DNA of 64,000 nucleotides, taken from assembly GCA_050732395.1 (NCBI GenBank), contig JBOHQX010000300.1, forward strand, positions 6,312 through 70,311, written 5' to 3'. Shown here in pieces: positions 21,608 through 60,348 of this stretch. Below the pieces are notes generated by a model. That model saw only the letters and a list, made by a program, of their open reading frames with translations. It searched no databases and was not told the origin of the DNA. The stretch's first letter is position 1. Every line of letters begins with the position of its first letter. A program made the position numbers and the translations under genes. The DNA comes from a bacterium. GTDB taxonomy: Bacteria > Zhuqueibacterota > Zhuqueibacteria > Zhuqueibacterales > Zhuqueibacteraceae.

Positions 21608-21656
21608 GTTACACTTTACACGTTACACCTTACACGTGTAACGTGTAACGTGTAAG
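21608..21656. repeat. self-complementary heptamer array (4x NTTACAC followed by 3x GTGTAAN)
   Basis: cgttacac tttacac gttacac cttacac | gtgtaac gtgtaac gtgtaag forms a loop-less hairpin or cruciform. It lies 12 nt 3' of the stop of the upstream minus-strand gene. Confidence 0.9.
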
Positions 21657-21667
21657 CAATAATCGGC

Positions 21668-22864
21668 TTATACTAATCCAAATTGCTTTCCAATGCGCGC
21701 AAACGCCTCGATAATCTGGTCCAAAATTTCATTCGTATGCGTGGCCATGTAACTGGTACGGATCAGGCCGTGGCCCTGCGGTACTGCGGGTGAAATCACC
21801 GGATTGGTGAAAATGCCGCTTTCAAAAAGCATGCGCCAAAATTCGAAAGTTTGCATGTCTTCGCCGATATGAAGTGGAATGATGGGCGATTGCGTGCCGC
21901 CGGTGTTGAAGCCAAGGTCGTCGAACGCCTTCTTCATTTTATGCACGTTGCGCCACAACCACTCGATACGCTCCGGCTCCTTCTCGAGAATGTCGACGGC
22001 GGCAATGACCGCCGCCGTTGAGGCGGGCGGCATGCTGGCCGAAAAAATCAACGAGCGCGCATGATGCTTGATATAATCGATTACGTAGTGGTCTCCCACA
22101 ACGAAACCGCCGATGGAAGCAAAGGATTTACTGAAGGTTCCGATCACCAGATCGACTTTATCTTCCATACCATAGTGCTCGCCCGTGCCGCGGCCATGCT
22201 GGCCCAGTACGCCGATGGAATGGGCGTCGTCGATGATGATGCGCGCGCCGTATTTCTCTGCCAGCAACGCCATCTCGGGCAACTTGACAATGTCGCCCTC
22301 CATGCTGAAAACGCCGTCGGCGATGATCACCTTTCCGGGTGCGTCTTTGTGCTTCGCCAGCAAGCGCTCGAGATGGTTCATGTCGTTGTGGCGGTAACGC
22401 ACGGTTTCGCCGAAAGCCAGGCGGCTGCCGTCCACGATGCTGGCGTGGTTGGCGCGGTCGGTGAATATCATCTCGTCTTTGCCGACCAGCGTTGCGATCA
22501 CTCCCAAATTGGTTTGAAAGCCGGTGGAAAATACCAGCGCGGCTTCGCGCTTCATGAAGCCGGCGAGGCGATGCTCCAGCTCTTCGTGCAGCTCCAGCGT
22601 GCCGTTGAGAAAACGCGAGCCGGTACAACCCGAGCCGAATTTTTCAATGGCATCGATCGCCGCTCGTTTGACGCGCGGATCTTGTGTCAAACCGAGATAG
22701 TTGTTCGAGCCGGCCATGATCATTTTGTGACCCTTGATCATGACTTCGATATCGGCGCCGGATTGGATGGCTTTGAAGTAGGGGTACCAGCCCTCTTCAA
22801 TCGCCTGCTGTGCCCGGGTAAAACTACGGCACTTTTGGAAGAGATCCAAATTGACCTCCCTCAC
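21668..22864 (-). CDS. alpha-oxoamine synthase family PLP enzyme (serine palmitoyltransferase / 8-amino-7-oxononanoate synthase-like)
   Basis: Contains GSNNYLGL, GSGCTGSRFLNG, IIDDAHSIGVLG and the PLP-lysine motif GTFSKSFASIGG. The N-terminal YPYFKAIQS...IKGHKMIM resembles bacterial SPT-type members. Confidence 0.85.
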   Translation of the reverse strand: MREVNLDLFQKCRSFTRAQQAIEEGWYPYFKAIQSGADIEVMIKGHKMIMAGSNNYLGLTQDPRVKRAAIDAIEKFGSGCTGSRFLNGTLELHEELEHRLAGFMKREAALVFSTGFQTNLGVIATLVGKDEMIFTDRANHASIVDGSRLAFGETVRYRHNDMNHLERLLAKHKDAPGKVIIADGVFSMEGDIVKLPEMALLAEKYGARIIIDDAHSIGVLGQHGRGTGEHYGMEDKVDLVIGTFSKSFASIGGFVVGDHYVIDYIKHHARSLIFSASMPPASTAAVIAAVDILEKEPERIEWLWRNVHKMKKAFDDLGFNTGGTQSPIIPLHIGEDMQTFEFWRMLFESGIFTNPVISPAVPQGHGLIRTSYMATHTNEILDQIIEAFARIGKQFGLV

Positions 22865-23129
22865 CTGAGTATTCGTTCAATGCGCGATTGTTAACTTTTT
22901 GAAATAGTCCTTTGTTCAGATTGGAGGAAAATATAATGTTCCACCATAAGCAAATCAACTGAAATAGCAGATCAACTGAAAAATGGCACTTGCGCCTGTA
23001 TGGCGGCGAAGTGCTTGGTTTTAAAAGGATTCGTGCTATCTTATGCGCGCTTGGCAGAATATTTTAAACCTTTTGGCTGCAAGTCGGTACATATAAGTAG
23101 AAAGCAATCAGCGACGAGGAAGGAGTTTC

Positions 23130-23708
23130 GTGCACGCACCCCGAAGGGTCCTCGAAGGGCCGGCCGACAATGAAATCATGATGAGGGTCCGCGACGGAGA
23201 GGTGTCGCAGCTTGGGCTTTTATTCGAACGGCATCAAACGATGTTGTATAATTTTTTCCTGCGGCAGAGCGGAAATCGCGAGGCCAGCCAGGATATGGTG
23301 CAGGAAGTGTTCTTGCGCATCTTACGCTATCGCCAGACTTTTCGAGGAGAAAGCAAGTTCACCGTCTGGATGTACAGTATTGCACGCAATGCCTACGCGG
23401 ATCATTTTCGTAAACGAAAAAAAGAAACGCCCGTGGATACCGGCGGGCTCGAAGCCTCCAGTGACGATCCCCTGCCGCATGAGACCATGGAGCAGGATCA
23501 AGAAGTGGCGTTGCTGCGGCGTGCGTTGGATCGGTTGTCTTCCGAAAAACGAGAGGTGTTGATGCTGAGTCGTTTTCAAAATCTCAAATATGAAGAGATC
23601 TCCCAGATTCTGAACTGCCCGGTCGGCACAATCAAAGCGCGCGTGCATTGGGCGATCAAAGACTTAAGAAAAATTTTCGAGCAATTATCCGGTGCGGCCA
23701 CGTCATGA
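23130..23708 (+). CDS. ECF-type RNA polymerase sigma-70 family factor
   Basis: GGAAGGAG lies 5 nt upstream of the GTG at 23130. Region 2 is QEVFLRILRYRQTFRGESKFTVWMYSIARN. Region 4 is REVLMLSRFQNLKYEEISQILNCPVGTIKARVHWA. Confidence 0.85.
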   Translation: MHAPRRVLEGPADNEIMMRVRDGEVSQLGLLFERHQTMLYNFFLRQSGNREASQDMVQEVFLRILRYRQTFRGESKFTVWMYSIARNAYADHFRKRKKETPVDTGGLEASSDDPLPHETMEQDQEVALLRRALDRLSSEKREVLMLSRFQNLKYEEISQILNCPVGTIKARVHWAIKDLRKIFEQLSGAATS

Positions 23709-24529
23709 CTTGCGAACAAGCCAACCAACATTTTCCGGATTATCTCAACGGTGATCTGGAGGAAACCACCAAACGCATCATGCAGATGCACGTGGAGCAA
23801 TGTGCGCATTGCCGGACCGAGCTGGCCGAGGCCGAAGCAATCTGGGCACGCTTGGGCCGCCTGCCGGAAGAGCCGCCGCCGGCGGCGCTGCAGGCGAGAT
23901 TCTATGCCATGCTCGCCGCCTATGAGCAGGGATTGCAGCACGCTCGGCCGCGCATGCGTTTGAGTGAGCACGTCAACGCCTGGCTCGAACGCTGGTGGCC
24001 GAAACAACCGGCCTGGCAATTCGCCGTGGCGGTCTTGTGTTTGGGTTTGGGTTTGCTCGCCGGCCGCGGCTGGCAATCCTCCCCCTCGCTCCCCCAAGAA
24101 GGTTTGCAAGTGGCACAACTACGCTCAGAAGTGCAGACGATGCAGCAAATGGTGGCGCTTTCGTTGTTGCAACAACCTTCACCCAGTGAGCGCCTGCGCG
24201 GCGTGAGTTGGAGTTATCAAGTGGCACACCCGGACCAGCAAATGCTCGCGGCGTTGATGCAAACCTTGAATTATGACGCCAACGTCAACGTGCGGCTGTC
24301 GGCGCTGGAAGCTTTGCATACATTCGCAGATCAGGACACCGTGCGGCAGGCGCTGGCCGCCTCTTTACCGCGCCAGAATTCGCCGCTGGTGCAAATTCGA
24401 TTGATCAATCTGATCGTAGAATTGCGCACTCGGCAAGCCAACGAGACTTTGCGGCAGCTTTTACAAGACGAGCAGCTCAGCCAGGAAGTGCGGCAGCGCG
24501 CGGAGTGGGGGTTGCGGCAATTGTTATAG
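23705..24529 (+). CDS. anti-sigma factor (zf-HC2, one TM helix, C-terminal HEAT-like repeats)
   Basis: The ATG overlaps the sigma gene stop (ATGA). The zf-HC2 motif is HVEQCAHCRTEL. The TM segment is WQFAVAVLCLGLGLLAG. The C-terminus has NVNVRLSALEAL / SPLVQIRLINLI HEAT-like repeats. Confidence 0.75.
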   Translation: MTCEQANQHFPDYLNGDLEETTKRIMQMHVEQCAHCRTELAEAEAIWARLGRLPEEPPPAALQARFYAMLAAYEQGLQHARPRMRLSEHVNAWLERWWPKQPAWQFAVAVLCLGLGLLAGRGWQSSPSLPQEGLQVAQLRSEVQTMQQMVALSLLQQPSPSERLRGVSWSYQVAHPDQQMLAALMQTLNYDANVNVRLSALEALHTFADQDTVRQALAASLPRQNSPLVQIRLINLIVELRTRQANETLRQLLQDEQLSQEVRQRAEWGLRQLL

Positions 24530-24550
24530 AATTGGTGTGTTCATCGCATT

Positions 24551-24689
24551 CCTACTCATACTCATACTCCTACTCCCACTCTTACTCGCTTTGAAATCTT
24601 GAAAGGCGAGTAAGAGTAAGAGTAAGAGTAAGAGTAAGAGTAAGAGTAAGAGCAAGAGTAAGAGTAAGAGTAGGAGTAAGAGAAGGAAG
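24551..24689. repeat. hexanucleotide microsatellite hairpin: (TACTCN)n arm, 16-nt loop, (AAGAGT)~13 arm
   Basis: The left arm (24551-24589, cctactcatactcatactcctactcccactcttactcgc) is the imperfect reverse complement of the first half of the right arm (24606-24689, gcgagt + aagagt repeats). The right arm runs into the AAGGAAG RBS of the gene starting at 24699. Confidence 0.9.
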
Positions 24690-24698
24690 AAAACCCTC

Positions 24699-25553: not shown

Positions 25554-25717
25554 TGGTTCATCCTAAATCACTTCTCTTGCACGCAAAATGTCACTCTGAA
25601 AGAATCCTGGTTGAATGGAACACTACGCTAGTGCTTCCCCAGATTCCTCGAATGAATGACAGGAGAAAAAGTCCGGGCGTAGTACCTGTAGACAAATCAA
25701 GTTTCGAGGCCATTCTC

Positions 25718-26578
25718 ATGACTATCAGGAAATCTGAAAAGCTCTTTCTTCTCTGTCTTCTGTTACTTGGCAATCTTGTTTTTGCCCAATCCCCCGGCAT
25801 GGATCGTTTGACCATCCCGCTTAGCGATCCTGCCCGCCCGGTAACCCTGAAAGCGGGGCTGATGAACGGCGGCATCACGGTGACGGGTTACGCCGGCAAG
25901 GAAGTGCTCGTAGAAGCACGCGTGCGCACGGAAGCAGATGAGGAGGAACGCCAAAGGCACAATCAAAAAAACAAGGAGAAGGACAAAGCCCTGGGTATGC
26001 GCCGGTTGGAAATCACCGCCACTGGGTTGACCGTGGAAGAAGAGAACAATGTGGTCGAAATCTCCACTTCATCCATGAACCGCACGGTCGACTTGAACAT
26101 TCAGGTGCCGCAGCGCGCGTCGTTGGAGCTGAGCTGCTTGAACGATGGCGACATCAAGGTCGATAACCTCACCGGCGAGTTCGAAATCAACAACACCAAC
26201 GGCGGCGTCACGCTCACCAACATTTCAGGTGCGGTGGTGGCGCATGCGCTCAATGAGAACGTGGTCGTCACCTTCACGAAAGTCGAGCCGGACAAGTCCA
26301 TGTCCTTCACTTCGCTCAACGGCGACATCGACGTGACCTTTCCGCCGGACGTGCGTGCGAAAGTGAAATTGAAATCAGATAACGGTGAGATCTACAGCGA
26401 TTTCGATGTTCGGCTCGAGCCCTCGACCGTTAAAACCGAGGAAGACGGGCGCAAAAAAGGCGGGAAATATCGAATTCAGTTGGAAAAAACCATGATCGGC
26501 ATGATCAACGGCGGCGGGCCGGAAATGCAATTCGCGACGTTTAATGGGGATATTTATATTCGGAAGAGGAAGCCGTAG
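25718..26578 (+). CDS. DUF4097 (toastrack beta-repeat) protein, second paralog
   Basis: The ATG at 25718 gives the signal peptide MTIRKSEKLFLLCLLLLGNLVFAQ. It shows the same repeat logic as its neighbour (MNGGITVTGYAG, NDGDIKVDNLTGEFEINNTNGGVTL, SLNGDIDVTF, FNGDIYIRKR). Confidence 0.8.
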   Translation: MTIRKSEKLFLLCLLLLGNLVFAQSPGMDRLTIPLSDPARPVTLKAGLMNGGITVTGYAGKEVLVEARVRTEADEEERQRHNQKNKEKDKALGMRRLEITATGLTVEEENNVVEISTSSMNRTVDLNIQVPQRASLELSCLNDGDIKVDNLTGEFEINNTNGGVTLTNISGAVVAHALNENVVVTFTKVEPDKSMSFTSLNGDIDVTFPPDVRAKVKLKSDNGEIYSDFDVRLEPSTVKTEEDGRKKGGKYRIQLEKTMIGMINGGGPEMQFATFNGDIYIRKRKP

Positions 26579-26681
26579 ATAGAAGATAGTAGATCGTGGT
26601 TCGTAGATTGTGGAGCGTAATGCTGAAATGAATGGTTGGGTTACTGGATTGATGGATTTTTGGATTACTGGATTACTGGAG
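26576..26681. repeat. two degenerate periodic arrays starting at the stop codon (TAGAT/GATCGTGG type, then TGGATNNN octamers)
   Basis: The first array is tagatagaagatagtagatcgtggttcgtagattgtgg (26576-26617). The second is ggttactg gattgatg gatttttg gattactg gattactg (about 26633-26681), which is the reverse complement of the array at 26871-26921. Confidence 0.8.
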
Positions 26682-26870
26682 AACTTGAGCTGTGAGGAGA
26701 TTCGCAATACAGTATTTCACCGCGACCTTCGGGCCTTTGGACTGTCATTCTGCAAGAATCTTCCCTAGCACTGGCTACAGGCCCGGATTGGATAGCTACC
26801 CGGTGCTAGAGTCAAATGCCAGCATAGCCACAGAGTGCTGAATTGCTTGAGCGTAGGACTTGAAATTCCA

Positions 26871-26921
26871 ATGATCCATCAATCCAGTAATCCATCAATC
26901 CAATAATTCACCACTCCAATG
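26871..26921. repeat. octamer array (ATCCANNA)n, inverted partner of 26633-26681
   Basis: atgatcc atcaatcc agtaatcc atcaatcc aataattc accactcc. It lies 16 nt 3' of the PorV/PorQ-like stop codon. The same word family recurs at 49341-49396. Confidence 0.8.
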
Positions 26922-26936
26922 CCCTACAATCCCATC

Positions 26937-27848
26937 TCAGAAAGTCATCGACAAGCTCAACCGGTTCAAGCTTCCAACTTCGCCAAAAGAAGAAATACCG
27001 TAATCGAATTTATACTGGCGATATTCCAACCCCAAACCCAGTGACACCCCGGCGAAGCGGTCGCCACTGGTTCCAACCTTTTGATCGCTGCCAATCGAAT
27101 CATAACCGAGTCGCAAAAACAATCCGGTTGACAGCATAAACTCGCCCCCCACCCGAAAGCGCAAGTCTTCCTCGGAATAACCGACGAGCGCGAGGCTGTA
27201 GCGCAGCGGCAAATGTTCGAGGCGCTTGGAAACGCCGACTTGATAGTTGAAGGGCAGGCGTTCTTTGGTCTGATCGAAAGCCGAGATCACGCCGCCGAGG
27301 TTGAAGAGCCCGCCGCCGAAGTCCATGTTGCCAAGGACCGAGGAATGATAGATCACACCAATGTCGACGGCGTAAGCATCAGAAGAAAAATTGGCCAACT
27401 CGGAACGAATGTACTTTAAATTCGCACCGATTTGCACGCGCTTGGCGCGCGTCTGCGCGTAGCTCAAATAGAACACGGCGCTGCTGGCGCCGAAGGTGCC
27501 CTGCTCGAGCCCCAGCTCGTTCGTGCGCTCAAACTCGCCGTAGCTGGTGTATTGCACGGCTGCGCCCAGGGTGCCGTTTCGCATCGGCATGACGTAAGCC
27601 CCGGCGAAGTTTTGAATGTCGAGAATGTGATTCAAATATCCGAACGCCGCCGTGCGCTTTTGTATATCGCCGATACCGGCCGGATTATAAAAAATACAGT
27701 GCGGATCGTTCGTCATGGCGACGAAGCTCGAGGCCATGCCCGAAGGCCGCGCGCCAACAGACGTGCGCAGAAAGGCGTAACCGATAGGATTTGATTGTGC
27801 GGACAAGATTGATGGAACAGCAACGGCGAGAAGAAAAATTTTTATCAT
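26937..27848 (-). CDS. PorV/PorQ family outer-membrane beta-barrel (T9SS-associated)
   Basis: The ATG at 27848 gives the signal peptide MIKIFLLAVAVPSILSAQ. The motif FLRTSVGARPSGMASSFVAMTNDPHCIFYNPAGIG resembles the PorV/PorQ N-terminal signature. Alternating beta-strand pattern ending in ...LSLSMTF. The longer track ORF runs through the two tRNA genes and is rejected. Confidence 0.65.
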   Translation of the reverse strand: MIKIFLLAVAVPSILSAQSNPIGYAFLRTSVGARPSGMASSFVAMTNDPHCIFYNPAGIGDIQKRTAAFGYLNHILDIQNFAGAYVMPMRNGTLGAAVQYTSYGEFERTNELGLEQGTFGASSAVFYLSYAQTRAKRVQIGANLKYIRSELANFSSDAYAVDIGVIYHSSVLGNMDFGGGLFNLGGVISAFDQTKERLPFNYQVGVSKRLEHLPLRYSLALVGYSEEDLRFRVGGEFMLSTGLFLRLGYDSIGSDQKVGTSGDRFAGVSLGLGLEYRQYKFDYGISSFGEVGSLNRLSLSMTF

Positions 27849-27922
27849 GAAATGACTTCGCAAGAAGTGAAAGGAACGAGCTAACCCAATCATCGCAAGA
27901 ATGCAAGAGCTTTTCAACATAG

Positions 27923-27995
<73 letters not shown>

Positions 27996-28082
27996 TTGGA
28001 AAGGCAAAGAGAAAACGTCAAACAGAAAAAAGCAAACGGCGAAAAGAAAAAAGCAAAACCGAGCGGCTTTGCTGTGAGGTCG

Positions 28083-28155
<73 letters not shown>

Positions 28156-32138: not shown

Positions 32139-35100
32139 ATGCTAGCCGCAATCAGACCAAGAAGCCTTTCGTTGCATGCGGCGGTACACACGTCGGTGGC
32201 TTTGCTGCTCAACTTGACCATGCCATCCACGGCCTCCGCGCAAAAATCTGCATCCGCTTACCTGAGGCGGGTGCGGGAGATCGCTACGCGCGATTTCGGC
32301 ATTCCCAATCCTCAGGGCCTGACTTTCTCGCCTTCAGCAGATGCCCTCTTCGTGCTCGCGGCCGCGAATACAACTTCGGCTGCGGCGGGCGCTCCCAAAC
32401 TGGCTATGATCGACGCATTGGAAGATCTGGCCGGTTCTTTGGATCTGGCGTCCGTTCCTGCCTCACCCATTACAATGGTTTTTGACAACAAGCTCAAGCG
32501 CTTGTTGTTCTATGATGTTCCCTCCAAACATTTGATTGCGATTCAGACAAACGCCAAGGGCCAGCCTGACCCAGCTTTGATGACCCGTTTCGAGGCCAAC
32601 GAGCTAGATTTGCAAAACCCGGTCGGGATGGCGCTCGATCCAAACGGCGGAAGCCTCTTCATCCTGGACCAGGCCCCCTCACAACTGGTCCGCATCGACC
32701 CCGGCCCTCAGAGCAGCATGGACGGCGCCGACGCCCTTAAAAAAACCCGGGTCTCGCAAATCGATCTCCAGCATACCGGTGTGCTTGATCTCCGTGGTCT
32801 TGCGTTCAATCCAGCGGACGGCCATCTTTATCTCGTGAGCCCGGAGCATCAGACGGTCTATGAGCTTACCACGGCCGGTCAGATCGTGGCGACCCGTGAC
32901 CTTGGTGCTGCCAACGTTCAGTTGGTCAAGCCTGAAGCCATGGTCTTCGCGCCCAGCGGAGATCTGACGGACGACCCGGAGGATATGAGCCTTTATATTG
33001 TTGACAACAAACCGGATCACGAAGGGTTCGGAGGTAGCCAGATCGTTGAATTGTCGTTCATATCACCCCTCGAAACGGATTACTCCGCGGCTGCAATGCT
33101 CTCAGCCCGCTTGGTGAAAATGACGCAAACCAGCAAGTGGTCCCCGCCCAGTCCAGATCCGATGGGGGCTGCTTATATTCCCTCCTCCAAGCGGCTGATG
33201 ATCAGCGATTCCGAAGTCGATGAAATGTCCATTTTTAAACGAGTCAATGTTTATGAAACGACGCTGTCAGGTAGCGTGCTGAGCACTGCCCAAACGACCT
33301 CTTTCTCCAAGGAGCCGACCGGAGTCGCTTTTAATCCAAGCAATGGCCATATCTTCATTTCCGACGATGATCTCGCCAAAGTATTTGAAATTGATCCAGG
33401 AGCCGATGGAAAATACTTCAGCAAAGATGACGTCCGTACTTCATTTAATACCAAAGGCTCGAAAAGTATAGACGCCGAAGGCATCACTTTTGGAAATGGC
33501 TATCTTTATATTGCAGACGGTGTGAATTCAGAAATTTACGAGTTCAGGCCGGGTGCCAATGGCCGATTCGATGGCCAGAAACCGGCGGGCGATGATCAAG
33601 TGAGCCATTTTGATACGAAAGCTCTGGGTATTCCGGATCCTGAAACCGTTGAATTTAATTCAACCTCGGGCACGCTATACATTACCGGTTATGGGTCCAG
33701 GAAGGTGATCGAAACCACGACTTCCGGAGAATTGCTCGATGTGATTGATATTGCTTTTTTGAAAGCAACGAATCCGTCAGGCATGGCTTATGCGCCAAGC
33801 AGTCTGAACCCGGCGGTAATGAATCTCTACATTGTGGCCCGAGGAGTGGATAATAATTCCAACCGGAAGGAAAATGACGGCAAGCTGTTTGAAATTTCCA
33901 TTCAATACCCGCTGCCGACCACAAGCATTTCCATTGATGATTTTTCCATAAGCGAAGGCGACACCGGCACGGTGAGTGCGATTTTCACCTTGCGCCTGTC
34001 CGAGTCGAGCAAGCGCATCGTCTCCGTGGACTATGCCACTGCAGATAGTACTGCCGCTGCCGGAAGTGATTATGTGTCCGGCTCCGGAACGGTGAGCTTC
34101 CCAGCCGGTACAACCTCGCAGACGATTACCTTGATCGTCAAAGGCGACACGGTCCCCGAGCCGAACGAGATTTTTTTGGTTCATCTTAGCAACCCGACCA
34201 ACGCGACCATTGGGGACGGCCAGGGTTTAGGTACAATCATTAACGATGAAATTGCGCCTGCAAGCGCCATCTCCATCAATGATGTCACGGTGACGGAAGG
34301 CGATTCCGGTACGACCGACGCCGTTTTCAATGTAACCCTGGATGTGCCAAGCGAGCAGACCGTCACCGTGGACTACGCCACGGCCGATAGTACAGCCACC
34401 GCCGGCAGTGATTATGTGTCCGGCTCCGGAACGCTCATTTTTCCAGCCGCAACAACTTCCCGGACGATTGCCGTGGCCGTCAATGGCGACGTGCTCGCAG
34501 GGTCAAACGAGACTTTTACGGTTCGGCTCATCAATCCGGCCAACGCGACCATTGCGGACAGCCAAGGAGTAGGGACAATCATGAACGATGATGACGCGTC
34601 CGCAGTCTCCATCTCGATTGATGATGTCTCTATCACTGAAGGCGACGCCGGCACGTCCAATGCAATTTTCAATGTGAAACTGTCTGCCCAATGCGAGCAG
34701 ACTGTCACCGTGGACTACGCCACGGCCGATAGTACTGCCACCGCCGGAAGTGATTATGTGTCTCGCTCCGGTACTGTAAGCTTTCCAGCCGAAACCACCT
34801 CTCAGACAATTGCCGTGGTCGTCAATGGCGACGTGCTCGTCGAGGCGAACGAGATTTTTTTGGTTCATCTCAGCAACCCGACCAACGCGACCATTGGGGA
34901 TGGTCATGCTTTGGGGACGATCATTGAAGAAGCCGCTGCTCAAATTGCACACGAAGAAACCAAGACCGGCGGAACTTCAAATTCCACCATGGTAATGACT
35001 TCTGCGAGCGTGACTGCTGTTAGCGGTCACCTTTACCTCGTAGCGATTTCGACCAGACCGACTGTTACCGTAAATGGTGTTTCCGGACTGGGCTTGAGCT

Positions 35101-35939
35101 GGAGCCGGGTGAAGGCGCAATGTGCCGGCAGGAATCGAACTGGAATAGAAGTATGGATGGCGCGCGGGAACCCGGGCGCTAGCAGCGCTGTGACGGCGAC
35201 ACTCGCCGCGGCCCCTTCGAGTGCGGCCATCACGGTATCGAGGTATTCGGGAGCAGCGGTAGCAAACCCGATAGGAAATATGGTTTCCGGCAATACGAAT
35301 GGAATAAACGGAGCCTGCTCAGGCGGAACCGATAATAATTCCTACTCATTCAATTTAACGACCACGGTAAATGAAGCAGTCGTGTATGGTGCAATTACCA
35401 TGCGGAATAGAACCCACACGCCAGGTGCCGGCTATACCGAGCGTGCAAAGATCCGGCAGGATAGCGGCTCAAACATGGCTTCCGTCGCCGTGCAGGATAA
35501 GAGCGTCGCTGCCATTTCAACAGTCGCAGTAAACGGCTCGTTCAGTGGCACTATTGATTGGGCGATGGTGGCTGTGGAGATCAAGCCACAGGCCGGGAGG
35601 ACTGGTGCACTCACACTTTCAAAAGAAGAACAAGAGCCGGCAGCCATTACGCCTCCACCAATGGCTTTTCAGCTTGATCAGAACCATCCGAATCCTTTCA
35701 ACCCAAGCACGCGCATCCGCTACAGCATGCCTGCGGACAGCCAGGTACGCTTGACGATCTACGATTTAGAGGGGCGCACGATAGCAGTTTTGGTGGACGG
35801 ATTTCAGAGCGCCGGAATTTATACCCAGATTTGGGGCGCCTCGGATTTCAAAGGCCGGCAACTTCCCAATGGCGTATATTTCTACCGCCTTCAGGCCGGC
35901 ACTCATGTTGCGACACGAAAAATGACGTTGCTGCGATAA
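32139..35939 (+). CDS. giant secreted beta-propeller (SdiA-regulated/NHL-like blades) + 3x Calx-beta protein with T9SS C-terminal sorting domain
   Basis: Signal-like N-terminus. Repeated blade motifs are present (GLAFNPADGHLYLVS, PTGVAFNPSNGHIFISD, AEGITFGNGYLYIAD, TVEFNSTSGTLYITG). Three Calx-beta units follow (I(S/N)DxxxxEGDxG...VDYATADSTAxAGSDYVSxSGT...). The C-terminus is LDQNHPNPFNPSTRIRY...NGVYFYRLQAG...MTLLR. Confidence 0.85.
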   Translation: MLAAIRPRSLSLHAAVHTSVALLLNLTMPSTASAQKSASAYLRRVREIATRDFGIPNPQGLTFSPSADALFVLAAANTTSAAAGAPKLAMIDALEDLAGSLDLASVPASPITMVFDNKLKRLLFYDVPSKHLIAIQTNAKGQPDPALMTRFEANELDLQNPVGMALDPNGGSLFILDQAPSQLVRIDPGPQSSMDGADALKKTRVSQIDLQHTGVLDLRGLAFNPADGHLYLVSPEHQTVYELTTAGQIVATRDLGAANVQLVKPEAMVFAPSGDLTDDPEDMSLYIVDNKPDHEGFGGSQIVELSFISPLETDYSAAAMLSARLVKMTQTSKWSPPSPDPMGAAYIPSSKRLMISDSEVDEMSIFKRVNVYETTLSGSVLSTAQTTSFSKEPTGVAFNPSNGHIFISDDDLAKVFEIDPGADGKYFSKDDVRTSFNTKGSKSIDAEGITFGNGYLYIADGVNSEIYEFRPGANGRFDGQKPAGDDQVSHFDTKALGIPDPETVEFNSTSGTLYITGYGSRKVIETTTSGELLDVIDIAFLKATNPSGMAYAPSSLNPAVMNLYIVARGVDNNSNRKENDGKLFEISIQYPLPTTSISIDDFSISEGDTGTVSAIFTLRLSESSKRIVSVDYATADSTAAAGSDYVSGSGTVSFPAGTTSQTITLIVKGDTVPEPNEIFLVHLSNPTNATIGDGQGLGTIINDEIAPASAISINDVTVTEGDSGTTDAVFNVTLDVPSEQTVTVDYATADSTATAGSDYVSGSGTLIFPAATTSRTIAVAVNGDVLAGSNETFTVRLINPANATIADSQGVGTIMNDDDASAVSISIDDVSITEGDAGTSNAIFNVKLSAQCEQTVTVDYATADSTATAGSDYVSRSGTVSFPAETTSQTIAVVVNGDVLVEANEIFLVHLSNPTNATIGDGHALGTIIEEAAAQIAHEETKTGGTSNSTMVMTSASVTAVSGHLYLVAISTRPTVTVNGVSGLGLSWSRVKAQCAGRNRTGIEVWMARGNPGASSAVTATLAAAPSSAAITVSRYSGAAVANPIGNMVSGNTNGINGACSGGTDNNSYSFNLTTTVNEAVVYGAITMRNRTHTPGAGYTERAKIRQDSGSNMASVAVQDKSVAAISTVAVNGSFSGTIDWAMVAVEIKPQAGRTGALTLSKEEQEPAAITPPPMAFQLDQNHPNPFNPSTRIRYSMPADSQVRLTIYDLEGRTIAVLVDGFQSAGIYTQIWGASDFKGRQLPNGVYFYRLQAGTHVATRKMTLLR
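33921..34930 (+). repeat. three tandem ~335-340-nt coding repeats (Calx-beta units)
   Basis: Units at about 33921-34260, 34261-34595 and 34596-34930 share long identical stretches, for example gtggactacgccacggccgatagtac(a/t)gccaccgccgg(c/a)agtgattatgtgtc. Confidence 0.85.
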
Positions 35940-39555: not shown

Positions 39556-39597
39556 GGTCCGAGCAATCGCTCGTTGCAAGCGATGTAACAGTCGACG

Positions 39598-39640
39598 AAA
39601 GGCCGGTCGTGCCCCATGGGTATGGCCGGCCTTTTGTTTT
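39598..39640. terminator. bidirectional intrinsic-terminator-like hairpin between convergent genes
   Basis: aaaggccgg (39598-39606) pairs with ccggccttt (39626-39634), followed by tgtttt. A-run on the left and T-run on the right. It lies between the FN3 gene stop (39555) and the cytochrome gene stop (39723). Confidence 0.6.
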
Positions 39641-40826: not shown

Positions 40827-41166
40827 CAACACAGAGACCCAGAGTGCACGGAGTGTCACAGCGCGGCGTTGCCGCAACAAGAAAAACTCACGCAGAGCCT
40901 CGCAAAGATTCGCAGAGATTTCCGGCTGGCAAAGTCGCAACCAAAATCTTTGCTAAAATGCAAAGCTTTACAAGTTTGTATTACAGAGGAAGTACGCTCG
41001 CTCCGTTACTCTCTGTAATACAAAATTGTTGAACTTTGCTTTTTTAGCAAAGTTTTTGATTACGACTCTGCTGCCCTGTAAATCTCTGCGAGTCTTTGCG
41101 AAGCTCTGCGTGCGTCATTTTTTTTTGCGGCTACGCCGCGCTGTGCGCTCCGTGTCTCTGTGTTGG
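40827..41166. repeat. 340-bp imperfect palindrome (two ~160-bp arms, 22-nt centre)
   Basis: The left arm starts caacacagagac (40827) and the right arm ends gtctctgtgttg (41166). The centre is gtattacagag (40978-88) / ctctgtaatac (41011-21). Colinear blocks include cacgcagagcctcgcaaagattcgcagagattt vs the reverse complement cacgcagagcttcgcaaagactcgcagagattt. The arms match at roughly four in five positions by eye. Confidence 0.85.
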
Positions 41167-49340: not shown

Positions 49341-49396
49341 CTACCTCCACTCCACTACTCCATCAATCCACCAATCCAGTAATCCATCAATCCACA
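49341..49396. repeat. octamer array (ATCCANNA family) directly 3' of the tetrahaem gene stop
   Basis: ctacctcc actccact actccatc aatccacc aatccagt aatccatc aatccaca. It uses the same words as 26871-26921. Confidence 0.8.
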
Positions 49397-50972: not shown

Positions 50973-51120
50973 GTCGATCGTAGATAGATGATCGTGGGTC
51001 GTAAAGGCTAAACCCAGGCGCAAAACAGCATCAATCGAAGCACTTACGGACGAACCAATGTCCACTATCTACCATCCACTACCCACGATCCACCATCCTC
51101 CATCTTCGATCCTCGACTCC
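50973..51120. repeat. inverted pair of degenerate periodic arrays overlapping the PFOR stop codon
   Basis: The left array is gtcgatcgtagatagatgatcgtgggtcgtaaagg (50973-51007). The right array is tccactatctaccatccactacccacgatccaccatcctccatcttcgatcctcgactcc (51061-51120). They share the complementary words gatcgtggg/cccacgatc and tagata/tatcta. The left array resembles 26576-26617. Confidence 0.7.
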
Positions 51121-56007: not shown

Positions 56008-56094
56008 AGTTTTATAAGAAGGAAAGCAGATCATCGTTGCGTGTCAAAAAGGTTATACGGAAGATTCTCACTACGAGCCGCACCCAAACAGGCT

Positions 56095-57507: not shown

Positions 57508-57604
57508 GCGCAATGATATCTGAATCAACACCCTTCAACTACCGTGGGCAATTTTATTTCCCCCTGAAAGAATAAAAAAGAGAAGTGAAATATGCCATCT
57601 CAAA

Positions 57605-58072
57605 TCATCGCGCTTTGAAGACCGGCTCCACGAGAACCTTGGTGCGTATCGAATTCGCAATCAAACAAGCATGATGGGCATCGTGCAACGCTTTCTCCGC
57701 CGGTGCTAACGATTCGTGCCCGGCAACGACGATAGCGGGGCGCAACACCACTCTGGTGAAGCGATAGCCTCCGTCACTGAATTCCAGCACGCCCTCGGCA
57801 TGGCTGTGATAAGAAACAACGGACAAATTGAGCTTTTGTGCAAAAGCAATGAAAGTCGTCATCGTGCAAGCTTCAACGGCAGCGACGAACAAATCTTCTG
57901 GCGTCCACACTCCGGCTTCACCTTTGAATTCCGGTGGGCTGGAAACGCGCAACTCGGGCTTGCCCTCCGCGCGCAACCAGCCTGCGCGATTGTCGGTCCA
58001 CCGCAGCGCAGTGCGATACACAAATGATTTGTGCCTCGCTTTGGACGGTGCGGTCGTTTCCTGTTTTATCAT
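57605..58072 (-). CDS. OsmC/Ohr family peroxiredoxin-like protein
   Basis: GAGGAAA lies upstream of the ATG at 58072. PPEFKGEAGVWTPEDLFVAAVEACTMTTF...HHACLIANSIRTKV, with the two conserved Cys regions of OsmC-type proteins. Confidence 0.8.
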   Translation of the reverse strand: MIKQETTAPSKARHKSFVYRTALRWTDNRAGWLRAEGKPELRVSSPPEFKGEAGVWTPEDLFVAAVEACTMTTFIAFAQKLNLSVVSYHSHAEGVLEFSDGGYRFTRVVLRPAIVVAGHESLAPAEKALHDAHHACLIANSIRTKVLVEPVFKAR

Positions 58073-58128
58073 TGAATTTCCTCGGGCAGTGGGTTGTTTT
58101 ATAAAAGGCAAATTCCATAACGGCCTTA

Positions 58129-58629
58129 TCACAACAATGCCGCCTTTTGCAAAACCTTGAGATCAACCTCGCGAATCTCTGCCAGGCTGAAACGGTTGAC
58201 TTTCGCCATTTGCAGCTCGTCCATGACATCGACCATTTGATGATATTTGCTCTTGCGGTCAACCTTGATCAGCGTCACGAGTTTGGGGTTATTCTCGTTG
58301 TGCATGATCAAAAACCTGCGCAACTGCTTGAATTCGAGGCGTTGCGGCGTTTCAATGCCGAAATTCCAAAAGATGCGGCCGTCCGATATCACGCGCAGGG
58401 TGAGCAGATTGGATTCGGCCACCTCTACCTCCGTTTCCTGCGGCGGCAGATTGATCTCCATGGTTTGCGGCCGGAGGAACACGCTGGTCAACATGAAAAA
58501 CGTCAACAGCAGGAAAGCGATATCTACCATCGGCGTCATGTCGATGCGAATGCCGAGACGCCGCGTTTTATGGGTTTTCCTGCCCTTGCGGTTCTCCGGG
58601 CGCGGAGCGCCACTACCAACGTCTGCCAT
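58129..58629 (-). CDS. exbD: ExbD/TolR family biopolymer transport protein (second copy)
   Basis: IRIDMTPMVDIAFLLLTFFML followed by a periplasmic domain ...LIKVDRKSKYHQMVDVMDEL. Lies in an operon with ExbB and TonB. Confidence 0.85.
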   Translation of the reverse strand: MADVGSGAPRPENRKGRKTHKTRRLGIRIDMTPMVDIAFLLLTFFMLTSVFLRPQTMEINLPPQETEVEVAESNLLTLRVISDGRIFWNFGIETPQRLEFKQLRRFLIMHNENNPKLVTLIKVDRKSKYHQMVDVMDELQMAKVNRFSLAEIREVDLKVLQKAALL

Positions 58630-59120
58630 GATTGATCACCTCGATACTCGCCTTGTTCCAGATTCGTTACCAGATTAAAACGTGACAGATTGACTTTTTG
58701 CAGAACATCCATGACGTCCAAAACCGGGCCGTATTCGGCATTGCGGTCACTCTTGATCACAGCACGCAGCTTGGGGTTGGCGACACGCGCTTCCAACAAC
58801 TTGCGCGACAACTCGCTCAATTGAATCGGAACATCGGCCTTGAGCATGTTCTCCTGACCAAAAAGCTTGGCGCGCAAAAATTGAGAATCCACACCCATGT
58901 ACAACGCGCCGTCTTTGGCAATGGTGATGGTCATCACGTCGGTTTCCGGCAGTTTGATCTGCGCATGCGAATCCGGCAAAACAACATCCACTTCTGCCGG
59001 CGGCCGGAATTGCGTTGTGAGCATGAAAAATGTCAACAAGAGGAAAGCGACGTCCACCATTGGCGTCATGTCGATGCGAATACCCATGCGGGCTGTCTTA
59101 ATTTTGGGCATAGGGGCCAC
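58536..59120 (-). CDS. exbD: ExbD/TolR family biopolymer transport protein (first copy; 3' end overlaps next gene by 94 nt)
   Basis: IRIDMTPMVDVAFLLLTFFMLTTQF...VIKSDRNAEYGPVLDVMDVL. The frame stays open about 45 codons beyond the usual family end, into the next exbD. Confidence 0.8.
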   Translation of the reverse strand: MAPMPKIKTARMGIRIDMTPMVDVAFLLLTFFMLTTQFRPPAEVDVVLPDSHAQIKLPETDVMTITIAKDGALYMGVDSQFLRAKLFGQENMLKADVPIQLSELSRKLLEARVANPKLRAVIKSDRNAEYGPVLDVMDVLQKVNLSRFNLVTNLEQGEYRGDQSWQTLVVALRARRTARAGKPIKRGVSAFAST

Positions 59121-59143
59121 CTGTCTCTCGGTTTGCTGTTTCG

Positions 59144-59249
59144 TTGATGCTCGATCCTTGATCTTCGATGCTCATTAATTATGGCTGGATGTACAGCAGT
59201 GAAGATGATCGTGCATCGAGCATCCAGTATCGAGAATCCAGCATCCAAC
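59144..59249. repeat. inverted pair of degenerate ~8-nt periodic arrays between exbB and exbD
   Basis: The left array is gttgatgctcgatccttgatcttcgatgctc (59144-73). The right array is gatcgtgcatcgagcatccagtatcgagaatccagcatccaac (59206-49). The reverse complement of the left array (gagcatcgaagatcaaggatcgagcatcaac) parallels the right array. Confidence 0.7.
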
Positions 59250-59251
59250 CC

Positions 59252-60043
59252 TCAAGCCGCTGCGACCTTCTCTTCGCTCTTACCCGTCAGGATCTCGACG
59301 ACCGTATAGCTGGCTTCGTCGATCATATAGGTGAAATTATCCACCTTGGTGACGAAATAGTTGTAAAACACGATACCAATAATTGCGGCGGCCAAGCCTC
59401 CGGCGGTGTTGATCAACGCTTCGGAAATGCCGATGGACAACTGTACGGCGTCCGGCGCGCCGGCATGCGCTAAAGCGCGAAACGCTCGAATCATGCCGAT
59501 GGTCGTGCCCAGCAATCCTACCATGGTCGCAATCGAAGCAATGGTGGAGAGCGCGACGAGATTCTTCTCCAATAACGGCACTTCAAGCATGGTGGCTTGA
59601 TCTATGGCGCGCTGTGTTTCGCTCGCGACTTTTTCCTGGTCGTTGTTGGTGCGTTGATGCACGATCTTGTAGCGCTCCAGTCCCGCGCGAATGATGTTCG
59701 CCAGCGAGCCGCGTTGTTCATTGCAGGCCGCGAGCGCGGTCTCTACTTTGCCGTCCATCAAGTCGCGTTGCACGTCGTGGAGAAAATTGGCCAGCGCGTT
59801 GCGGCCGCGCGCCTTCGTGAGCGACAACCACCGCTCAACGATGAAAGTGATGTCCATCATCAACAGCGCCAACAGCACGATCACCAACGGACCGCCTTTG
59901 TAAATGAATTCCAGGCCGTATCTGTCCTGGGGCGCGCCGAAGATCGCGAAGAAGATATAAGCCGCAATCGCGAACTCGATCAATACCACGATAGCCAAAA
60001 AAAATTCTCTGCGCATACTCTGTCTCCTTTCAAGTTGAATCAC
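59252..60043 (-). CDS. exbB: MotA/TolQ/ExbB proton-channel family protein
   Basis: Three TM segments with the signature IASIATMVGLLGTTIGMIRAF and AGGLAAAIIGIVFYNYF. Confidence 0.88.
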   Translation of the reverse strand: MIQLERRQSMRREFFLAIVVLIEFAIAAYIFFAIFGAPQDRYGLEFIYKGGPLVIVLLALLMMDITFIVERWLSLTKARGRNALANFLHDVQRDLMDGKVETALAACNEQRGSLANIIRAGLERYKIVHQRTNNDQEKVASETQRAIDQATMLEVPLLEKNLVALSTIASIATMVGLLGTTIGMIRAFRALAHAGAPDAVQLSIGISEALINTAGGLAAAIIGIVFYNYFVTKVDNFTYMIDEASYTVVEILTGKSEEKVAAA

Positions 60044-60306
60044 CTGTTACTATATAACAAGTGCAATCGTTGCTTTTTAAGCAAAACCCATTGCAAAACT
60101 TCTTTAGGCAATATGATTAAAGAATTATTTTGCCCGCAATCGTTTTGCTTTTATGGGTGCAAGCTTGTTTATGTTAGCTCATTCAGGAAAAATCTTTTTC
60201 AGCATTTCGAGTGCGCCAGATTTTAACAAGATTCTTACAGAATGACATGCAAAGAGCATAGGAGATTCCTCTCTGCGTGGGAATGACGTCCTGGTTTTAT
60301 GAAAAA

Positions 60307-60348
60307 ACTGAACACTGATCACTGAATACTGAACACTGACTACTGAAA
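60307..60348. repeat. heptamer array 6x (ACTGANN) overlapping the TPR gene stop codon
   Basis: actgaac actgatc actgaat actgaac actgact actgaaa. The stop codon (cta on the plus strand, 60340-42) lies inside the array. Confidence 0.85.

What the first reader, a model, noticed from the sequence alone, without database searches (positions are those of the whole stretch)
21608..60348. Recurrent 6-8-nt periodic degenerate arrays placed at or directly 3' of stop codons, usually as inverted pairs
Eight loci show the same design: a short word repeated 4-13 times with drift, beginning within 0-20 nt of (or overlapping) a stop codon. Most are accompanied by the complementary array, so that a long imperfect hairpin can form.
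- 21608-21656: heptamers, after the alpha-oxoamine synthase.
- 24551-24689: hexamers, after the anti-sigma gene.
- 26576-26681: after the second DUF4097 gene.
- 26871-26921: octamers, after the PorV/PorQ-like gene.
- 49341-49396: octamers, after the tetrahaem gene.
- 50973-51120: overlapping the PFOR stop.
- 59144-59249: after exbB.
- 60307-60348: heptamers overlapping the TPR gene stop.

The words differ between loci, but some are shared: the ATCCANNA family at 26.9 and 49.3 kb, and the GATCGTGG/TAGAT family at 26.6 and 51.0 kb. This looks like a genome-specific solution for transcript 3'-end formation or stabilisation. Replication slippage may continually regenerate it. I am not aware of a description of it.
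Basis: seen in the sequence. Interest (0 to 1): 0.6.

Follow-up and report, generated by a model that had tools for sequence, protein, structure and literature searches.

The report
Heptamer-repeat hairpins linked to IVS genes
The 6-8-base tandem repeats after stop codons are real and occur at about 750 places in this genome, mostly as long hairpins; they look like gene-less copies of hairpin elements whose full versions carry a small four-helix-bundle ("23S rRNA intervening-sequence") protein gene, not like a special kind of terminator.

Summary
All eight loci are real period-6/7/8 degenerate arrays that start 0-21 nt from a stop codon or overlap it. Two of them (26.64 and 26.87 kb) are the two arms of one hairpin.

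The pattern is genome-wide: 976 arrays in 746 loci, against about none in a simulated genome. 73% are inverted pairs that fold into hairpins averaging -43 kcal/mol. About 90% are non-coding. They sit 1.5-1.8 times more often just after stops than just before starts.

They are not canonical terminators. They lack a U tract and show no sense-strand G.U signature. Some lie inside operons (exbB-exbD). Only about 10% of genes have one, and ordinary terminators exist in the window.

The vocabulary is about a dozen core-plus-wobble words, shared across genera. Each main word family has one copy whose loop holds a PF05635/TIGR02436 four-helix-bundle gene: 8 of 9 such genes are so flanked, against 9 of 546 control genes. 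The protein tree matches the flanking word perfectly. Arrays of a word are abundant mostly where the matching gene clade is intact.

Best reading: these are IVS-type hairpin elements and their gene-less derivatives, related to cyanobacterial STRR and other heptamer repeats. RNase III processing of the transcribed stems is inferred. No RNA data could be obtained.

The parts
21608..21656 (.). TTACACN / NGTGTAA heptamer hairpin. It lies 11 nt after the aminotransferase stop (21668, - strand) and 27 nt before the next gene's start.
   Evidence: RNA fold -28.4 kcal/mol, z -4.9. It belongs to a family with 157 pattern hits in the genome. The cognate four-helix-bundle gene is at C299:14305-14655.
24550..24689 (.). 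Hexamer hairpin. The left arm (CYTACT)n is at 24550-24587 and the right arm (GAGTAA)n at 24608-24689. It fills the gap between the anti-sigma stop (24529) and the DUF4097 gene start (24699).
   Evidence: -54 kcal/mol, z -8.3. The orthologous gap in the sister species lacks it.
26576..26619 (+). Solo GTAGATCGTGG-type array that contains the TAG stop of the second DUF4097 gene.
   Evidence: The same word family occurs at the same position in the sister species (L084:3265-3333).
26636..26921 (.). One octamer hairpin. The left arm (TGGATTNN)n is at 26636-26680 and the right arm (ATCCANNA)n at 26867-26921. The arms are separated by a 186-nt insert (26681-26866). It lies in a convergent gap between the DUF4097 and PorV-like genes.
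   Evidence: arms 45 nt, 76-83% complementary. Part of the insert is another repeat with >=20 copies in the genome.
49341..49396 (-). Solo octamer array. It reads (TGGATTNN)n on the sense strand and lies 4 nt after the tetrahaem cytochrome stop.
50973..51120 (.). Hairpin with arms at 50973-51003 (GATCGTRG/TAGAT words) and 51061-51120 (CCACNATC words) and a loop of about 55 nt. The right arm encodes the last codons and the stop of the PFOR gene (51079).
   Evidence: -51 kcal/mol. PFOR homologues align only up to residue about 1224-1238 of 1239.
59144..59249 (.). Heptamer hairpin with GATGCTC / GAGCATC words. It fills the exbB (stop 59252) to exbD (start 59120) intercistronic gap.
   Evidence: -40.4 kcal/mol, z -3.8
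60305..60351 (.). Solo NNACTGA heptamer array that contains the stop of the TPR gene (60340).
   Evidence: It belongs to a family with 261 pattern hits in the genome. The cognate gene is at C274:60954-61418.

Best explanation
The arrays are the arms of a lineage-specific population of hairpin elements of the 'intervening sequence' (IVS) type.

In its full form an element has five parts in order:
- a left array;
- a short leader;
- a small four-helix-bundle gene (Pfam 23S_rRNA_IVP, NCBIfam TIGR02436);
- a short trailer;
- a right array that is the reverse complement of the left one.

This genome has about ten full elements, each with its own 6-8-nt word made of a constant core and 1-2 variable positions. 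The eight window loci, and about 740 others, are gene-less hairpins or half-hairpins with the same words.

Shown here:
- the genome-wide population and its hairpin design;
- the intergenic, stop-proximal placement;
- the bracketing of the four-helix-bundle genes by cognate arrays;
- the match between protein clade and word;
- the co-occurrence of abundant arrays with an intact cognate gene;
- persistence at orthologous sites, with changes in unit number.

Inferred:
- (a) The protein acts in trans on its own word to maintain or spread the hairpins, as a RAYT does for REPINs.
- (b) Arms grow and shrink by slippage. They are kept complementary by a strand-symmetric DNA-level process such as template switching, rather than by selection on RNA.
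- (c) Copies survive mainly just after stop codons because they are tolerated there. Many words also supply stop codons in every frame.
- (d) When transcribed, the 25-70-bp stems are cut by RNase III, as 23S rRNA IVS stems are. This would give processed ends between cistrons rather than termination.
For: Population: 976 arrays in 746 loci. 547 loci are hairpins, with median arm 35 nt, median span 77 nt and mean dG -43 kcal/mol.

Vocabulary: limited, with a constant core and a variable position; pairing is restored when one unit forms the loop.

Flanking of the genes:
- 8 of 9 well-scoring PF05635 genes of this genome are flanked left and right by complementary period-7/8 arrays, against 9 of 546 random small genes (p=1e-12).
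- The left arm starts at the upstream stop codon.
- The same bracketing holds for nearly all of 40 further loci from 14 related genomes.

Tree of 44 proteins: the 10 word groups need 9 label changes, which is the minimum. Shuffled labels need 19.3 on average, and 0 of 200 shuffles were as low. Clade supports are 96-100.

Co-occurrence in 29 genomes, comparing genomes with abundant (>=20 pattern hits) and scarce arrays; each pair gives genomes with and without the intact gene:
- TTACACN: 4/0 when abundant, 1/24 when not.
- ATCCANNA: 7/1 and 1/20.
- NNACTGA: 5/3 and 1/20.
- Pooled: p=3e-11.
- Within the genus, the sister species has a truncated ACTGA-clade gene and 11 hits, against 261 here.

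Protein identity: TIGR02436 above cut-off; PDB relatives 2RLD and 2GSC, each with five chains in the entry.

Published precedent: the Coxiella IVS has an S23p ORF, a 28-bp terminal inverted-repeat stem and tandem heptamers whose number varies between strains. RNase III cuts in the stem (PMC4990558).

Other points: one RNase III gene is present. In orthologous gaps of the sister species, 6 of 10 keep the same word with different unit numbers, 1 has another word and 3 are empty.
Against:
- The co-occurrence has exceptions. G007 has 306 octamer hits and no cognate gene. G016 has 85 ACTGA hits and no cognate gene. G017 and G005 have genes but few arrays.
- The Fisher tests ignore phylogenetic non-independence, and the assemblies are incomplete.
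- The tree-to-word congruence could be plain linked inheritance of gene and arms.
- Loops of gene-less hairpins share nothing with the leaders or trailers of the full elements.
- The TTACAC gene-less hairpins have the opposite arm order (TTACAC then GTGTAA) to the gene-bearing copy (GTGTAA, gene, TTACAC). So they are not simple deletion derivatives.
- No transposition mechanism, target duplication or catalytic protein is identified.
- One window family (GATGCT words, 59.2 kb) has no cognate gene in this assembly.
- Gene calls are my own crude ones.
Confidence: 0.6

Rival explanations
1. The arrays are neutral simple-sequence repeats. Polymerase slippage creates and resizes 6-8-nt arrays wherever intergenic DNA tolerates them. 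The hairpins and the link to any gene are incidental. This is the classical STRR / long-SSR view.
For: - Heptamer excess in many bacteria has been attributed to slippage (Mrazek 2007, as cited in PMC4692102).
- Unit numbers differ between sister species at the same site.
- There is no strand asymmetry in stability.
- Arrays are also present in divergent gaps.
Against: - Slippage alone does not explain a vocabulary of about a dozen words shared by up to about 100 unrelated loci and by several genera.
- It does not explain the 73% inverted pairing.
- It does not explain the bracketing of PF05635 genes by cognate words.
- It does not explain the gene-array co-occurrence.
Confidence: 0.13
2. The hairpins exist because they form or protect transcript 3' ends, either as U-tract-less terminators or as barriers to 3'-5' exonucleases, as E. 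coli REP elements are.
For: - Coverage jumps from about 1 to 54-67 per thousand genes in the first 60 nt after stops.
- Hairpins are closer to the stop than to the start in 66-74% of cases.
- The stems are very stable.
- 7 of 10 orthologous gaps keep an array, and one of these has a different word.
Against: - Only about 10% of genes have one.
- There is no U tract.
- There is no excess of G:U over A:C mismatches on the sense strand.
- They occur inside operons such as exbB-exbD and anti-sigma-DUF4097.
- They are no more frequent per convergent gap than per tandem gap (0.103 against 0.10-0.12).
- Canonical terminators are in use.
- This view does not explain the word families or the gene link.
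Confidence: 0.12
3. The four-helix-bundle gene is a passenger, not a driver. It is a small mobile cassette that lands in, or is kept only within, the loops of pre-existing array hairpins. More hairpins of one word then simply mean more homes for the matching gene lineage.
For: - The same association data apply.
- Arrays are abundant without the gene in G007 and G016.
- The protein has no known catalytic activity.
- In Coxiella the S23p protein is apparently not made (PMC4990558).
Against: - There is usually one gene per word family per genome, despite tens to hundreds of available hairpins.
- Pseudogenised or truncated genes go with few or no arrays (G002, G016 for TTACAC; G001 for ACTGA).
- The deep, long-branch protein clades match words across genera.
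Confidence: 0.12
4. The arrays are REP/REPIN-like elements mobilised by a RAYT (Y1 HUH transposase).
For: They are intergenic palindromic repeats in hundreds of copies, and 13 PF01797 matches exist in the genome.
Against: - Only 3 of 13 Y1 transposase loci have any array within 1 kb. The background for random windows is 19%, and none of the loci is bracketed.
- Y1 genes are equally common in relatives without arrays.
Confidence: 0.03

Closest known systems
23S rRNA intervening sequences (IVS) carrying an S23p / 23S_rRNA_IVP ORF (Coxiella burnetii, Leptospira, Xanthomonas; PMC4990558)
   Same: - A small PF05635/TIGR02436 four-helix-bundle gene lies in the loop of a long stem made by terminal inverted repeats.
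- The arms contain tandem heptamers whose number varies between strains.
- The published element is regarded as selfish and is removed from RNA by RNase III.
   Different: - Here the elements sit between protein-coding genes, not in helix 25 or 45 of 23S rRNA.
- There are about ten gene-bearing elements with different words in one genome.
- They are accompanied by hundreds of gene-less hairpins.
- RNase III cleavage is not shown here.
Heptameric simple-sequence repeats of bacteria: cyanobacterial STRR (Mazel 1990), GGGAATC of Xanthomonas and GGGGAYT of Nostoc (Rehm 2015, PMC4692102), TAACTGA repeats of Beggiatoaceae, Cyanobacteria and Bacteroidetes (MacGregor 2015, PMC4679880)
   Same: - They are tandem 7-nt units with drift.
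- They are intergenic and lineage-specific.
- There are tens to hundreds of sets per genome, and some form inverted pairs.
- Indels come in 7-nt steps between strains.
- One family here has the ACTGA core of TAACTGA.
   Different: - Here 73% of loci are inverted pairs; BOGUAY had 169 direct sets and 1 inverted set.
- About a dozen word families coexist, including 6- and 8-mers.
- Placement is stop-proximal rather than just upstream of start codons.
- The published work names no associated protein gene.
REP / REPIN elements with their RAYT transposase (E. coli, Pseudomonas; PMC3116915, PMC3333891)
   Same: - The logic is the same: a single-copy gene flanked by its own cognate palindromic repeat, plus a large population of gene-less copies in intergenic, mostly 3' positions.
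- Repeat populations go with the presence of the gene.
   Different: - The associated protein is a four-helix bundle without known nuclease activity, not a Y1 HUH transposase.
- Stems are tandem arrays that can pair in several registers.
- Y1 transposases of this genome are not associated with the arrays.
Rho-independent (intrinsic) terminators
   Same: Both are stable hairpins shortly after stop codons.
   Different: - These hairpins have no U tract.
- The stems are long and AT-rich.
- They are symmetric on both strands and are found inside operons.
- True GC-stem plus U-tract terminators are present elsewhere in the window.

Membership tests
Bacterial heptamer (6-8 nt) tandem repeat arrays (STRR / long SSR class) | Head-to-tail copies of a 6-8-nt unit, far more frequent than chance | tested here: met
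   84/547/146 arrays of period 6/7/8 at score >=40, against 0/0/1 in the simulated genome; for the window
Bacterial heptamer (6-8 nt) tandem repeat arrays (STRR / long SSR class) | Predominantly intergenic, dispersed over the genome, with lineage-specific words | tested here: met
   - about 90% of loci are non-coding.
- the arrays are present in family f1, patchy elsewhere, and absent from most of f2.
IVS elements with S23p/IVP ORF | Long stem formed by terminal inverted repeats that contain tandem heptamers | tested here: met
   published for Coxiella
IVS elements with S23p/IVP ORF | PF05635 / TIGR02436 four-helix-bundle ORF in the loop | tested here: not met
   - Not met for the eight window loci, which have loops of 0-186 nt without such an ORF.
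- Met for 8 of 9 gene-bearing master copies elsewhere in the genome.
- The window loci are therefore filed as gene-less relatives, not as full IVS elements.
IVS elements with S23p/IVP ORF | Inserted in helix 25 or 45 of the 23S rRNA gene | tested here: not met
   - All copies seen lie between protein-coding genes.
- The 23S gene of the assembly is incomplete (positions 1-1153 and 2515-2925 only), so an rRNA copy can be neither seen nor excluded.
IVS elements with S23p/IVP ORF | Excised from the transcript by RNase III | not testable with these tools
One RNase III gene is present.
REP/REPIN-RAYT systems | Y1 (HUH) transposase gene flanked by the cognate repeats | tested here: not met
   3 of 13 loci have any array within 1 kb (background 19%), and none is bracketed
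Intrinsic terminators | G+C-rich stem followed by a U tract on the transcribed strand | tested here: not met
   9% have >=5 T in the 8 nt after the hairpin, the same as for A. The words are AT-rich.
TAACTGA direct repeats (MacGregor 2015) | Direct repeats of TAACTGA, mostly within a few nt upstream of start codons, in forward orientation | tested here: inconclusive
   - An NNACTGA family is abundant here (261 hits).
- However, it occurs mostly as inverted pairs.
- Its solo arrays tend to the reverse orientation (4 forward, 12 reverse).
- Arrays avoid the last 30 nt before starts.
MITEs | Terminal inverted repeats with target-site duplication and conserved ends | tested here: inconclusive
   Flanks of 30 TTACAC copies show no conserved ends or obvious duplications beyond T-runs and A-runs that extend the stem. 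This was not examined systematically.

The most novel reading that the evidence does not exclude
The four-helix-bundle 'IVS proteins' and the 6-8-nt tandem arrays form one self-propagating system. Each protein lineage would recognise its own word. Possibly one protomer of the pentameric ring binds one repeat unit, which would explain a constant core plus spacer positions and arrays of 3-13 units. The protein would maintain or spread the cognate hairpins through the genome. This would be a REPIN/RAYT-like relationship run by a non-HUH protein related to the Avd protein of diversity-generating retroelements. It would give a cause for the long-unexplained heptamer repeats (STRR, TAACTGA, GGGAATC) of many phyla, and would make 23S rRNA intervening sequences one special landing site of a much wider element class.
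Probability: 0.3. Interest if true: 0.85.

Novelty: new variant of a known kind. Interest (0 to 1): 0.6.

Why it matters
Heptamer repeat arrays have been known since 1990 in cyanobacteria, and later in Xanthomonas, Beggiatoaceae and Bacteroidetes. The papers I could read name no cause or function for them. 23S rRNA intervening sequences with their S23p ORF are equally unexplained.

This genome shows the two together, on a large scale and outside rRNA:
- about ten word-specific four-helix-bundle genes, each bracketed by its own array;
- hundreds of gene-less hairpins of the same words;
- protein-word co-phylogeny;
- gene-array co-occurrence.

That turns an old descriptive puzzle into testable questions. 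Does the protein bind its word? Do arrays decay when the gene is lost? Does RNase III cut the stems in mRNAs?

There are practical consequences too. The hairpins occupy about a tenth of intergenic gaps, some of them inside operons. They break short-read assemblies. They also supply or replace the last codons and the stop of genes such as PFOR and the TPR protein.

Tried and rejected
- **Strain polymorphism.**
  - Exact-protein look-ups found only identical DNA from other assemblies of the same organism, whose contigs end inside arrays. Two further look-ups found nothing.
  - The metagenome scan found no relative closer than 78%.
- **Taxonomy.** The PFOR scan of genome contigs returned only distant hits from cyanobacteria and Acidobacteria.
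- **RAYT hypothesis.** Rejected.
- **Known RNA family.** Rfam finds only two tRNAs in the window.
- **RNA-level selection.** There is no sense/antisense difference in folding energy and no G:U excess.
- **Orientation bias of solo arrays.** Weak: 60% are G-rich on the sense strand, p=0.004, and no family is individually significant.
- **Gene-less hairpins as deletion derivatives of the full elements.** Their loops share nothing with the leaders or trailers, and both arm orders are common (212 G-rich arm first, 160 C-rich arm first).
- **IVS in this organism's own 23S rRNA.** The gene is split and its middle is missing from the assembly. The break lies in conserved sequence, not in an array.
- **'Coding' arrays.** Most of the 134 loci first classed as coding lie in the first decile of my longest-ORF gene calls, so they are upstream of the true starts.

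Full report
**1.

Tandem Repeats Finder reports period-6, -7 or -8 arrays (and their doubles) at each of the eight places. The sequences show short words repeated with drift:
- TTACACN / NGTGTAA at 21.6 kb
- CYTACT / GAGTAA at 24.6 kb
- GTAGATCGTGG and TGGATTNN at 26.6 kb
- ATCCANNA at 26.9 and 49.4 kb
- GATCGTRG / CCACNATC at 51.0 kb
- GATGCTC / GAGCATC at 59.2 kb
- NNACTGA at 60.3 kb

Against the ORFs, each array begins 0-21 nt from a stop codon or contains it. In three cases the array itself supplies the stop: 26576, 51079 and 60340.

Four loci fold locally into long hairpins, at -28 to -54 kcal/mol. The arrays at 26636-26680 and 26875-26919 are the two arms of a single hairpin that was split by a 186-nt insert. 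Three arrays are solo.

**2. It is a genome-wide system.**

The window lies in an 8.2-Mb, 417-contig, 53.6% G+C assembly.
- At TRF score >=40 there are 84, 547 and 146 arrays of period 6, 7 and 8. A third-order Markov simulation gives 0, 0 and 1.
- Merging gives 976 arrays in 746 loci. 574-622 arrays have a reverse-complementary partner within 200 nt. A reversed control gives 2-7 and a complemented control 60-100.
- 547 loci (73%) are hairpins, with median arm 35 nt and median span 77 nt.
- In hairpins lying in tandem gaps, mean dG is -43 kcal/mol and arm complementarity is 84%.

The vocabulary is small:
- heptamers TTACACN, NNACTGA, GTGAAYN, CGATTTN, ATCTTCN and GGATGCT;
- hexamers CTTACT and relatives;
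- octamers ATCCANNA and GCGTCTTT.

Each word has a constant core and one or two variable positions. The variable positions pair once one unit is allowed to form the loop. The flanks of different copies are unrelated.

**3. Placement.**

I used my own crude gene calls (5,715 genes; starts refined).
- About 90% of loci are non-coding. Most of the 'coding' ones lie in over-extended 5' ends of my ORFs.
- Density is 0.45-0.50 loci per kb in tandem gaps, 0.36 in convergent gaps and 0.17-0.19 in divergent gaps.
- Anchored on gene ends, array coverage rises from about 1 per thousand genes inside coding sequence to 54-67 in the first 60 nt after the stop. Upstream of starts it peaks at 38-45 and falls in the last 30 nt.
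- 10.0% of confident genes have an array within 60 nt after the stop, against 5.5-6.9% within 60 nt before the start.
- In tandem gaps the hairpin is nearer the stop in 66-74% of cases.

The enrichment is 1.5-2.6-fold, though, not exclusive.

**4. Not terminators.**

- Hairpins are not followed by a U tract: 9% have >=5 T in 8 nt, the same as for A.
- They fold equally well on either strand. The sense strand is more stable in 159 and the antisense in 172 (p=0.84).
- Mismatches that would be G.U on the sense strand are not favoured (483 against 571).
- They sit between genes that are normally co-transcribed, such as exbB-exbD and anti-sigma-DUF4097.
- Convergent gaps have no more of them per gap than tandem gaps.
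- The window contains ordinary GC-stem plus U-tract terminators at 39595-39637 (+) and 54878-54853 (-).

The pairing therefore looks like a strand-symmetric DNA-level property, not the product of selection on an mRNA structure. This last point is an inference.

**5. Relatives.**

- Samples of 120-170 kb from eight related genomes give 90, 114, 35, 29 and 7 arrays per Mb in five genomes of the same family, against 95 here. Two genomes of the neighbouring family and one genome of the same class give none.
- Whole-genome pattern counts show each word with its own patchy distribution.
- Of ten array-bearing gaps in the sister species (about 78% nucleotide identity in genes), six have the same word family here with different unit numbers. 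One has a hairpin of a different word, and three are empty.

Arrays thus persist for long times, change length, and turn over.

**6. What is published.**

- Heptamer arrays are known as STRR in Calothrix and Nostoc.
- They are over-represented long SSRs in many bacteria.
- They occur as GGGAATC in Xanthomonas and GGGGAYT in Nostoc, some of them as inverted pairs (PMC4692102).
- They occur as TAACTGA direct repeats in Beggiatoaceae, Cyanobacteria and Bacteroidetes, mostly just upstream of start codons (PMC4679880).
- A Nostoc preprint suggests regulatory effects.

None of these papers names an associated gene.

**7. The link to four-helix-bundle genes.**

Notes of earlier agents in this scan, on other genomes, proposed that such hairpins are gene-less versions of IVS-type elements that carry a 23S_rRNA_IVP gene. 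I treated this as a lead and tested it here.
- The genome has 13 PF05635 matches, about 10 of them good.
- 8 of 9 complete ones are flanked on both sides by complementary period-7/8 arrays, each of a different word family:
  - C299 with GTGTAA / TTACAC;
  - C274 with CAGTNAT / ACTGATC;
  - C26 with TGGATTGG / AATCCA;
  - C307 and C191 with GCGCATGG / CCATGCGC;
  - C336 with GTAGATAGTGGAT words;
  - C180 with GTGAAYG words;
  - C398 with weaker GATTGSGG / CCSCAATC arms.
- A partial gene at the contig end C66 is followed by the hexamer words.
- As in the window loci, the left arm starts at or within 15 nt of the upstream stop codon.
- Only 9 of 546 random small genes are so flanked (p=1e-12). 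Those inspected are ordinary genes with a hairpin in each neighbouring gap.
- The proteins are TIGR02436 four-helix-bundle proteins. They are related to PDB 2RLD and 2GSC and, below cut-off, to the DGR protein Avd.
- The same bracketing holds for nearly all of 40 further loci from 14 genomes of the order, including the neighbouring family.

**8. Protein and word go together.**

- In a maximum-likelihood tree of 44 of these proteins, the ten word groups need nine label changes, which is the minimum possible. Shuffled labels need 19.3 on average, and none of 200 shuffles was as low. Word clades have 96-100% support and long stems.
- Across the 29 genomes of the order, arrays of a word are abundant almost only where the matching protein clade is intact. 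Each pair gives genomes with and without the intact gene:
  - TTACACN: 4/0 when abundant, 1/24 when not.
  - ATCCANNA: 7/1 and 1/20.
  - NNACTGA: 5/3 and 1/20.
  - Pooled: p=3e-11.
- Telling cases:
  - Two genomes have a TTACAC-clade pseudogene and no TTACAC arrays.
  - The sister species has a truncated ACTGA-clade gene and 11 hits, against 261 here.
  - The ATCCANNA gene and its arrays appear together in one genome of the neighbouring family and in two of eight genomes of another genus.
- Exceptions: G007 (306 octamer hits, no gene), G016, G017 and G005.

The tests are not corrected for shared ancestry, and the assemblies are incomplete.

**9. How it probably works.**

The closest published object is the S23p-bearing IVS of 23S rRNA. 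In Coxiella it has a 28-bp terminal inverted-repeat stem and tandem GACAGAT heptamers that vary in number between strains. RNase III cuts in the stem at the first heptamer (PMC4990558).

I therefore read the arrays as arms of IVS-type elements that here live in intergenic DNA, together with their gene-less derivatives.

Shown:
- the anatomy;
- the placement;
- the gene association;
- the co-phylogeny;
- the co-occurrence.

Inferred:
- The protein recognises its own word and maintains or spreads the hairpins.
- Slippage changes unit number, and a template-switch-like process keeps the arms matched.
- Copies survive after stop codons because they do little harm there.
- Transcribed stems of 25-70 bp are RNase III substrates (an RNase III gene is present). 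This would give processed ends between cistrons.

Stop-rich words fit the tolerance idea. 71% of heptamer words carry a stop triplet on one strand, against 44% of random heptamers. 52% of hairpins close all three frames, against 28% of matched array-free intergenic DNA.

**10. What does not fit.**

- Loops of gene-less hairpins share nothing with the interior of the full elements.
- Both arm orders are common.
- The TTACAC hairpins have the opposite arm order to their gene-bearing copy.

Gene-less copies are therefore not simple internal deletions. No catalytic activity that could move DNA is known for this protein family. The Y1 transposases of the genome are not associated with the arrays.

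**11. Verdict.**

The arrays are stop-proximal hairpins with slippage dynamics. They are not a genome-specific terminator system, and they are not without precedent.
- The class is known (heptamer repeats; IVS elements).
- What I did not find in the papers searched is their union outside rRNA, with word-specific four-helix-bundle genes.

Noticed in passing
window 26681-26866: The 186-nt insert that splits the octamer hairpin is unique as a whole. Its positions about 56-100 match a 30-45-nt element present in at least 20 other contigs. This is a second, unrelated small repeat family. A copy also lies next to the four-helix-bundle gene at C404.
   Followed up: partly
window 40827-41166: A palindrome of about 340 nt whose outer arms are built from GCAGAG / GCAAAG-type words. 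It probably belongs to the octamer family AAAGACGC / ACGCAGAG (38 + 4 arrays genome-wide) and has a loop of about 200 nt.
   Followed up: no
window 27923-28155: Two tRNA genes lie on the - strand (27923-27995, 28083-28155), with a degenerate AAAAGCA period-7 array (28000-28058) between them. The long ORF 26937-28112 overlaps them, so the PorV-like gene must start further downstream, at about 27737-27800.
   Followed up: partly
genome contig ends; L082 (SRR27067776 contig): 56 of the 746 array loci lie within 200 nt of a contig end. An independent Logan contig of identical DNA ends inside the arrays at window 24626 and 26902. The repeats break short-read assemblies.
   Followed up: partly
window 39595-39637 (+) and 54878-54853 (-): Two classical intrinsic terminators: a 20-bp and an 11-bp GC-containing stem, each followed by a U tract. 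They lie after the 908-aa gene and after the gene upstream of PFOR, so the organism uses ordinary terminators.
   Followed up: no
window 34019-34900: A 342-nt unit is repeated 2.6 times at 79% identity inside the 1266-aa ORF 32139-35939. This is a coding domain repeat, unrelated to the short arrays.
   Followed up: no
genome C330:21406-22609 and C258:55318-55734: The 23S rRNA gene is split in the assembly. Model positions 1-1153 lie at one contig end and 2515-2925 at another, and the middle is missing. The break lies in conserved sequence near the GTPase-associated region.
   Followed up: partly
G001:C177:32542-32778 compared with G000:C274:60954-61418: The sister species keeps only the first half (residues 3-81, 76% identity) of the ACTGA-clade four-helix-bundle gene. 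It has 11 NNACTGA pattern hits, against 261 in this genome.
   Followed up: partly
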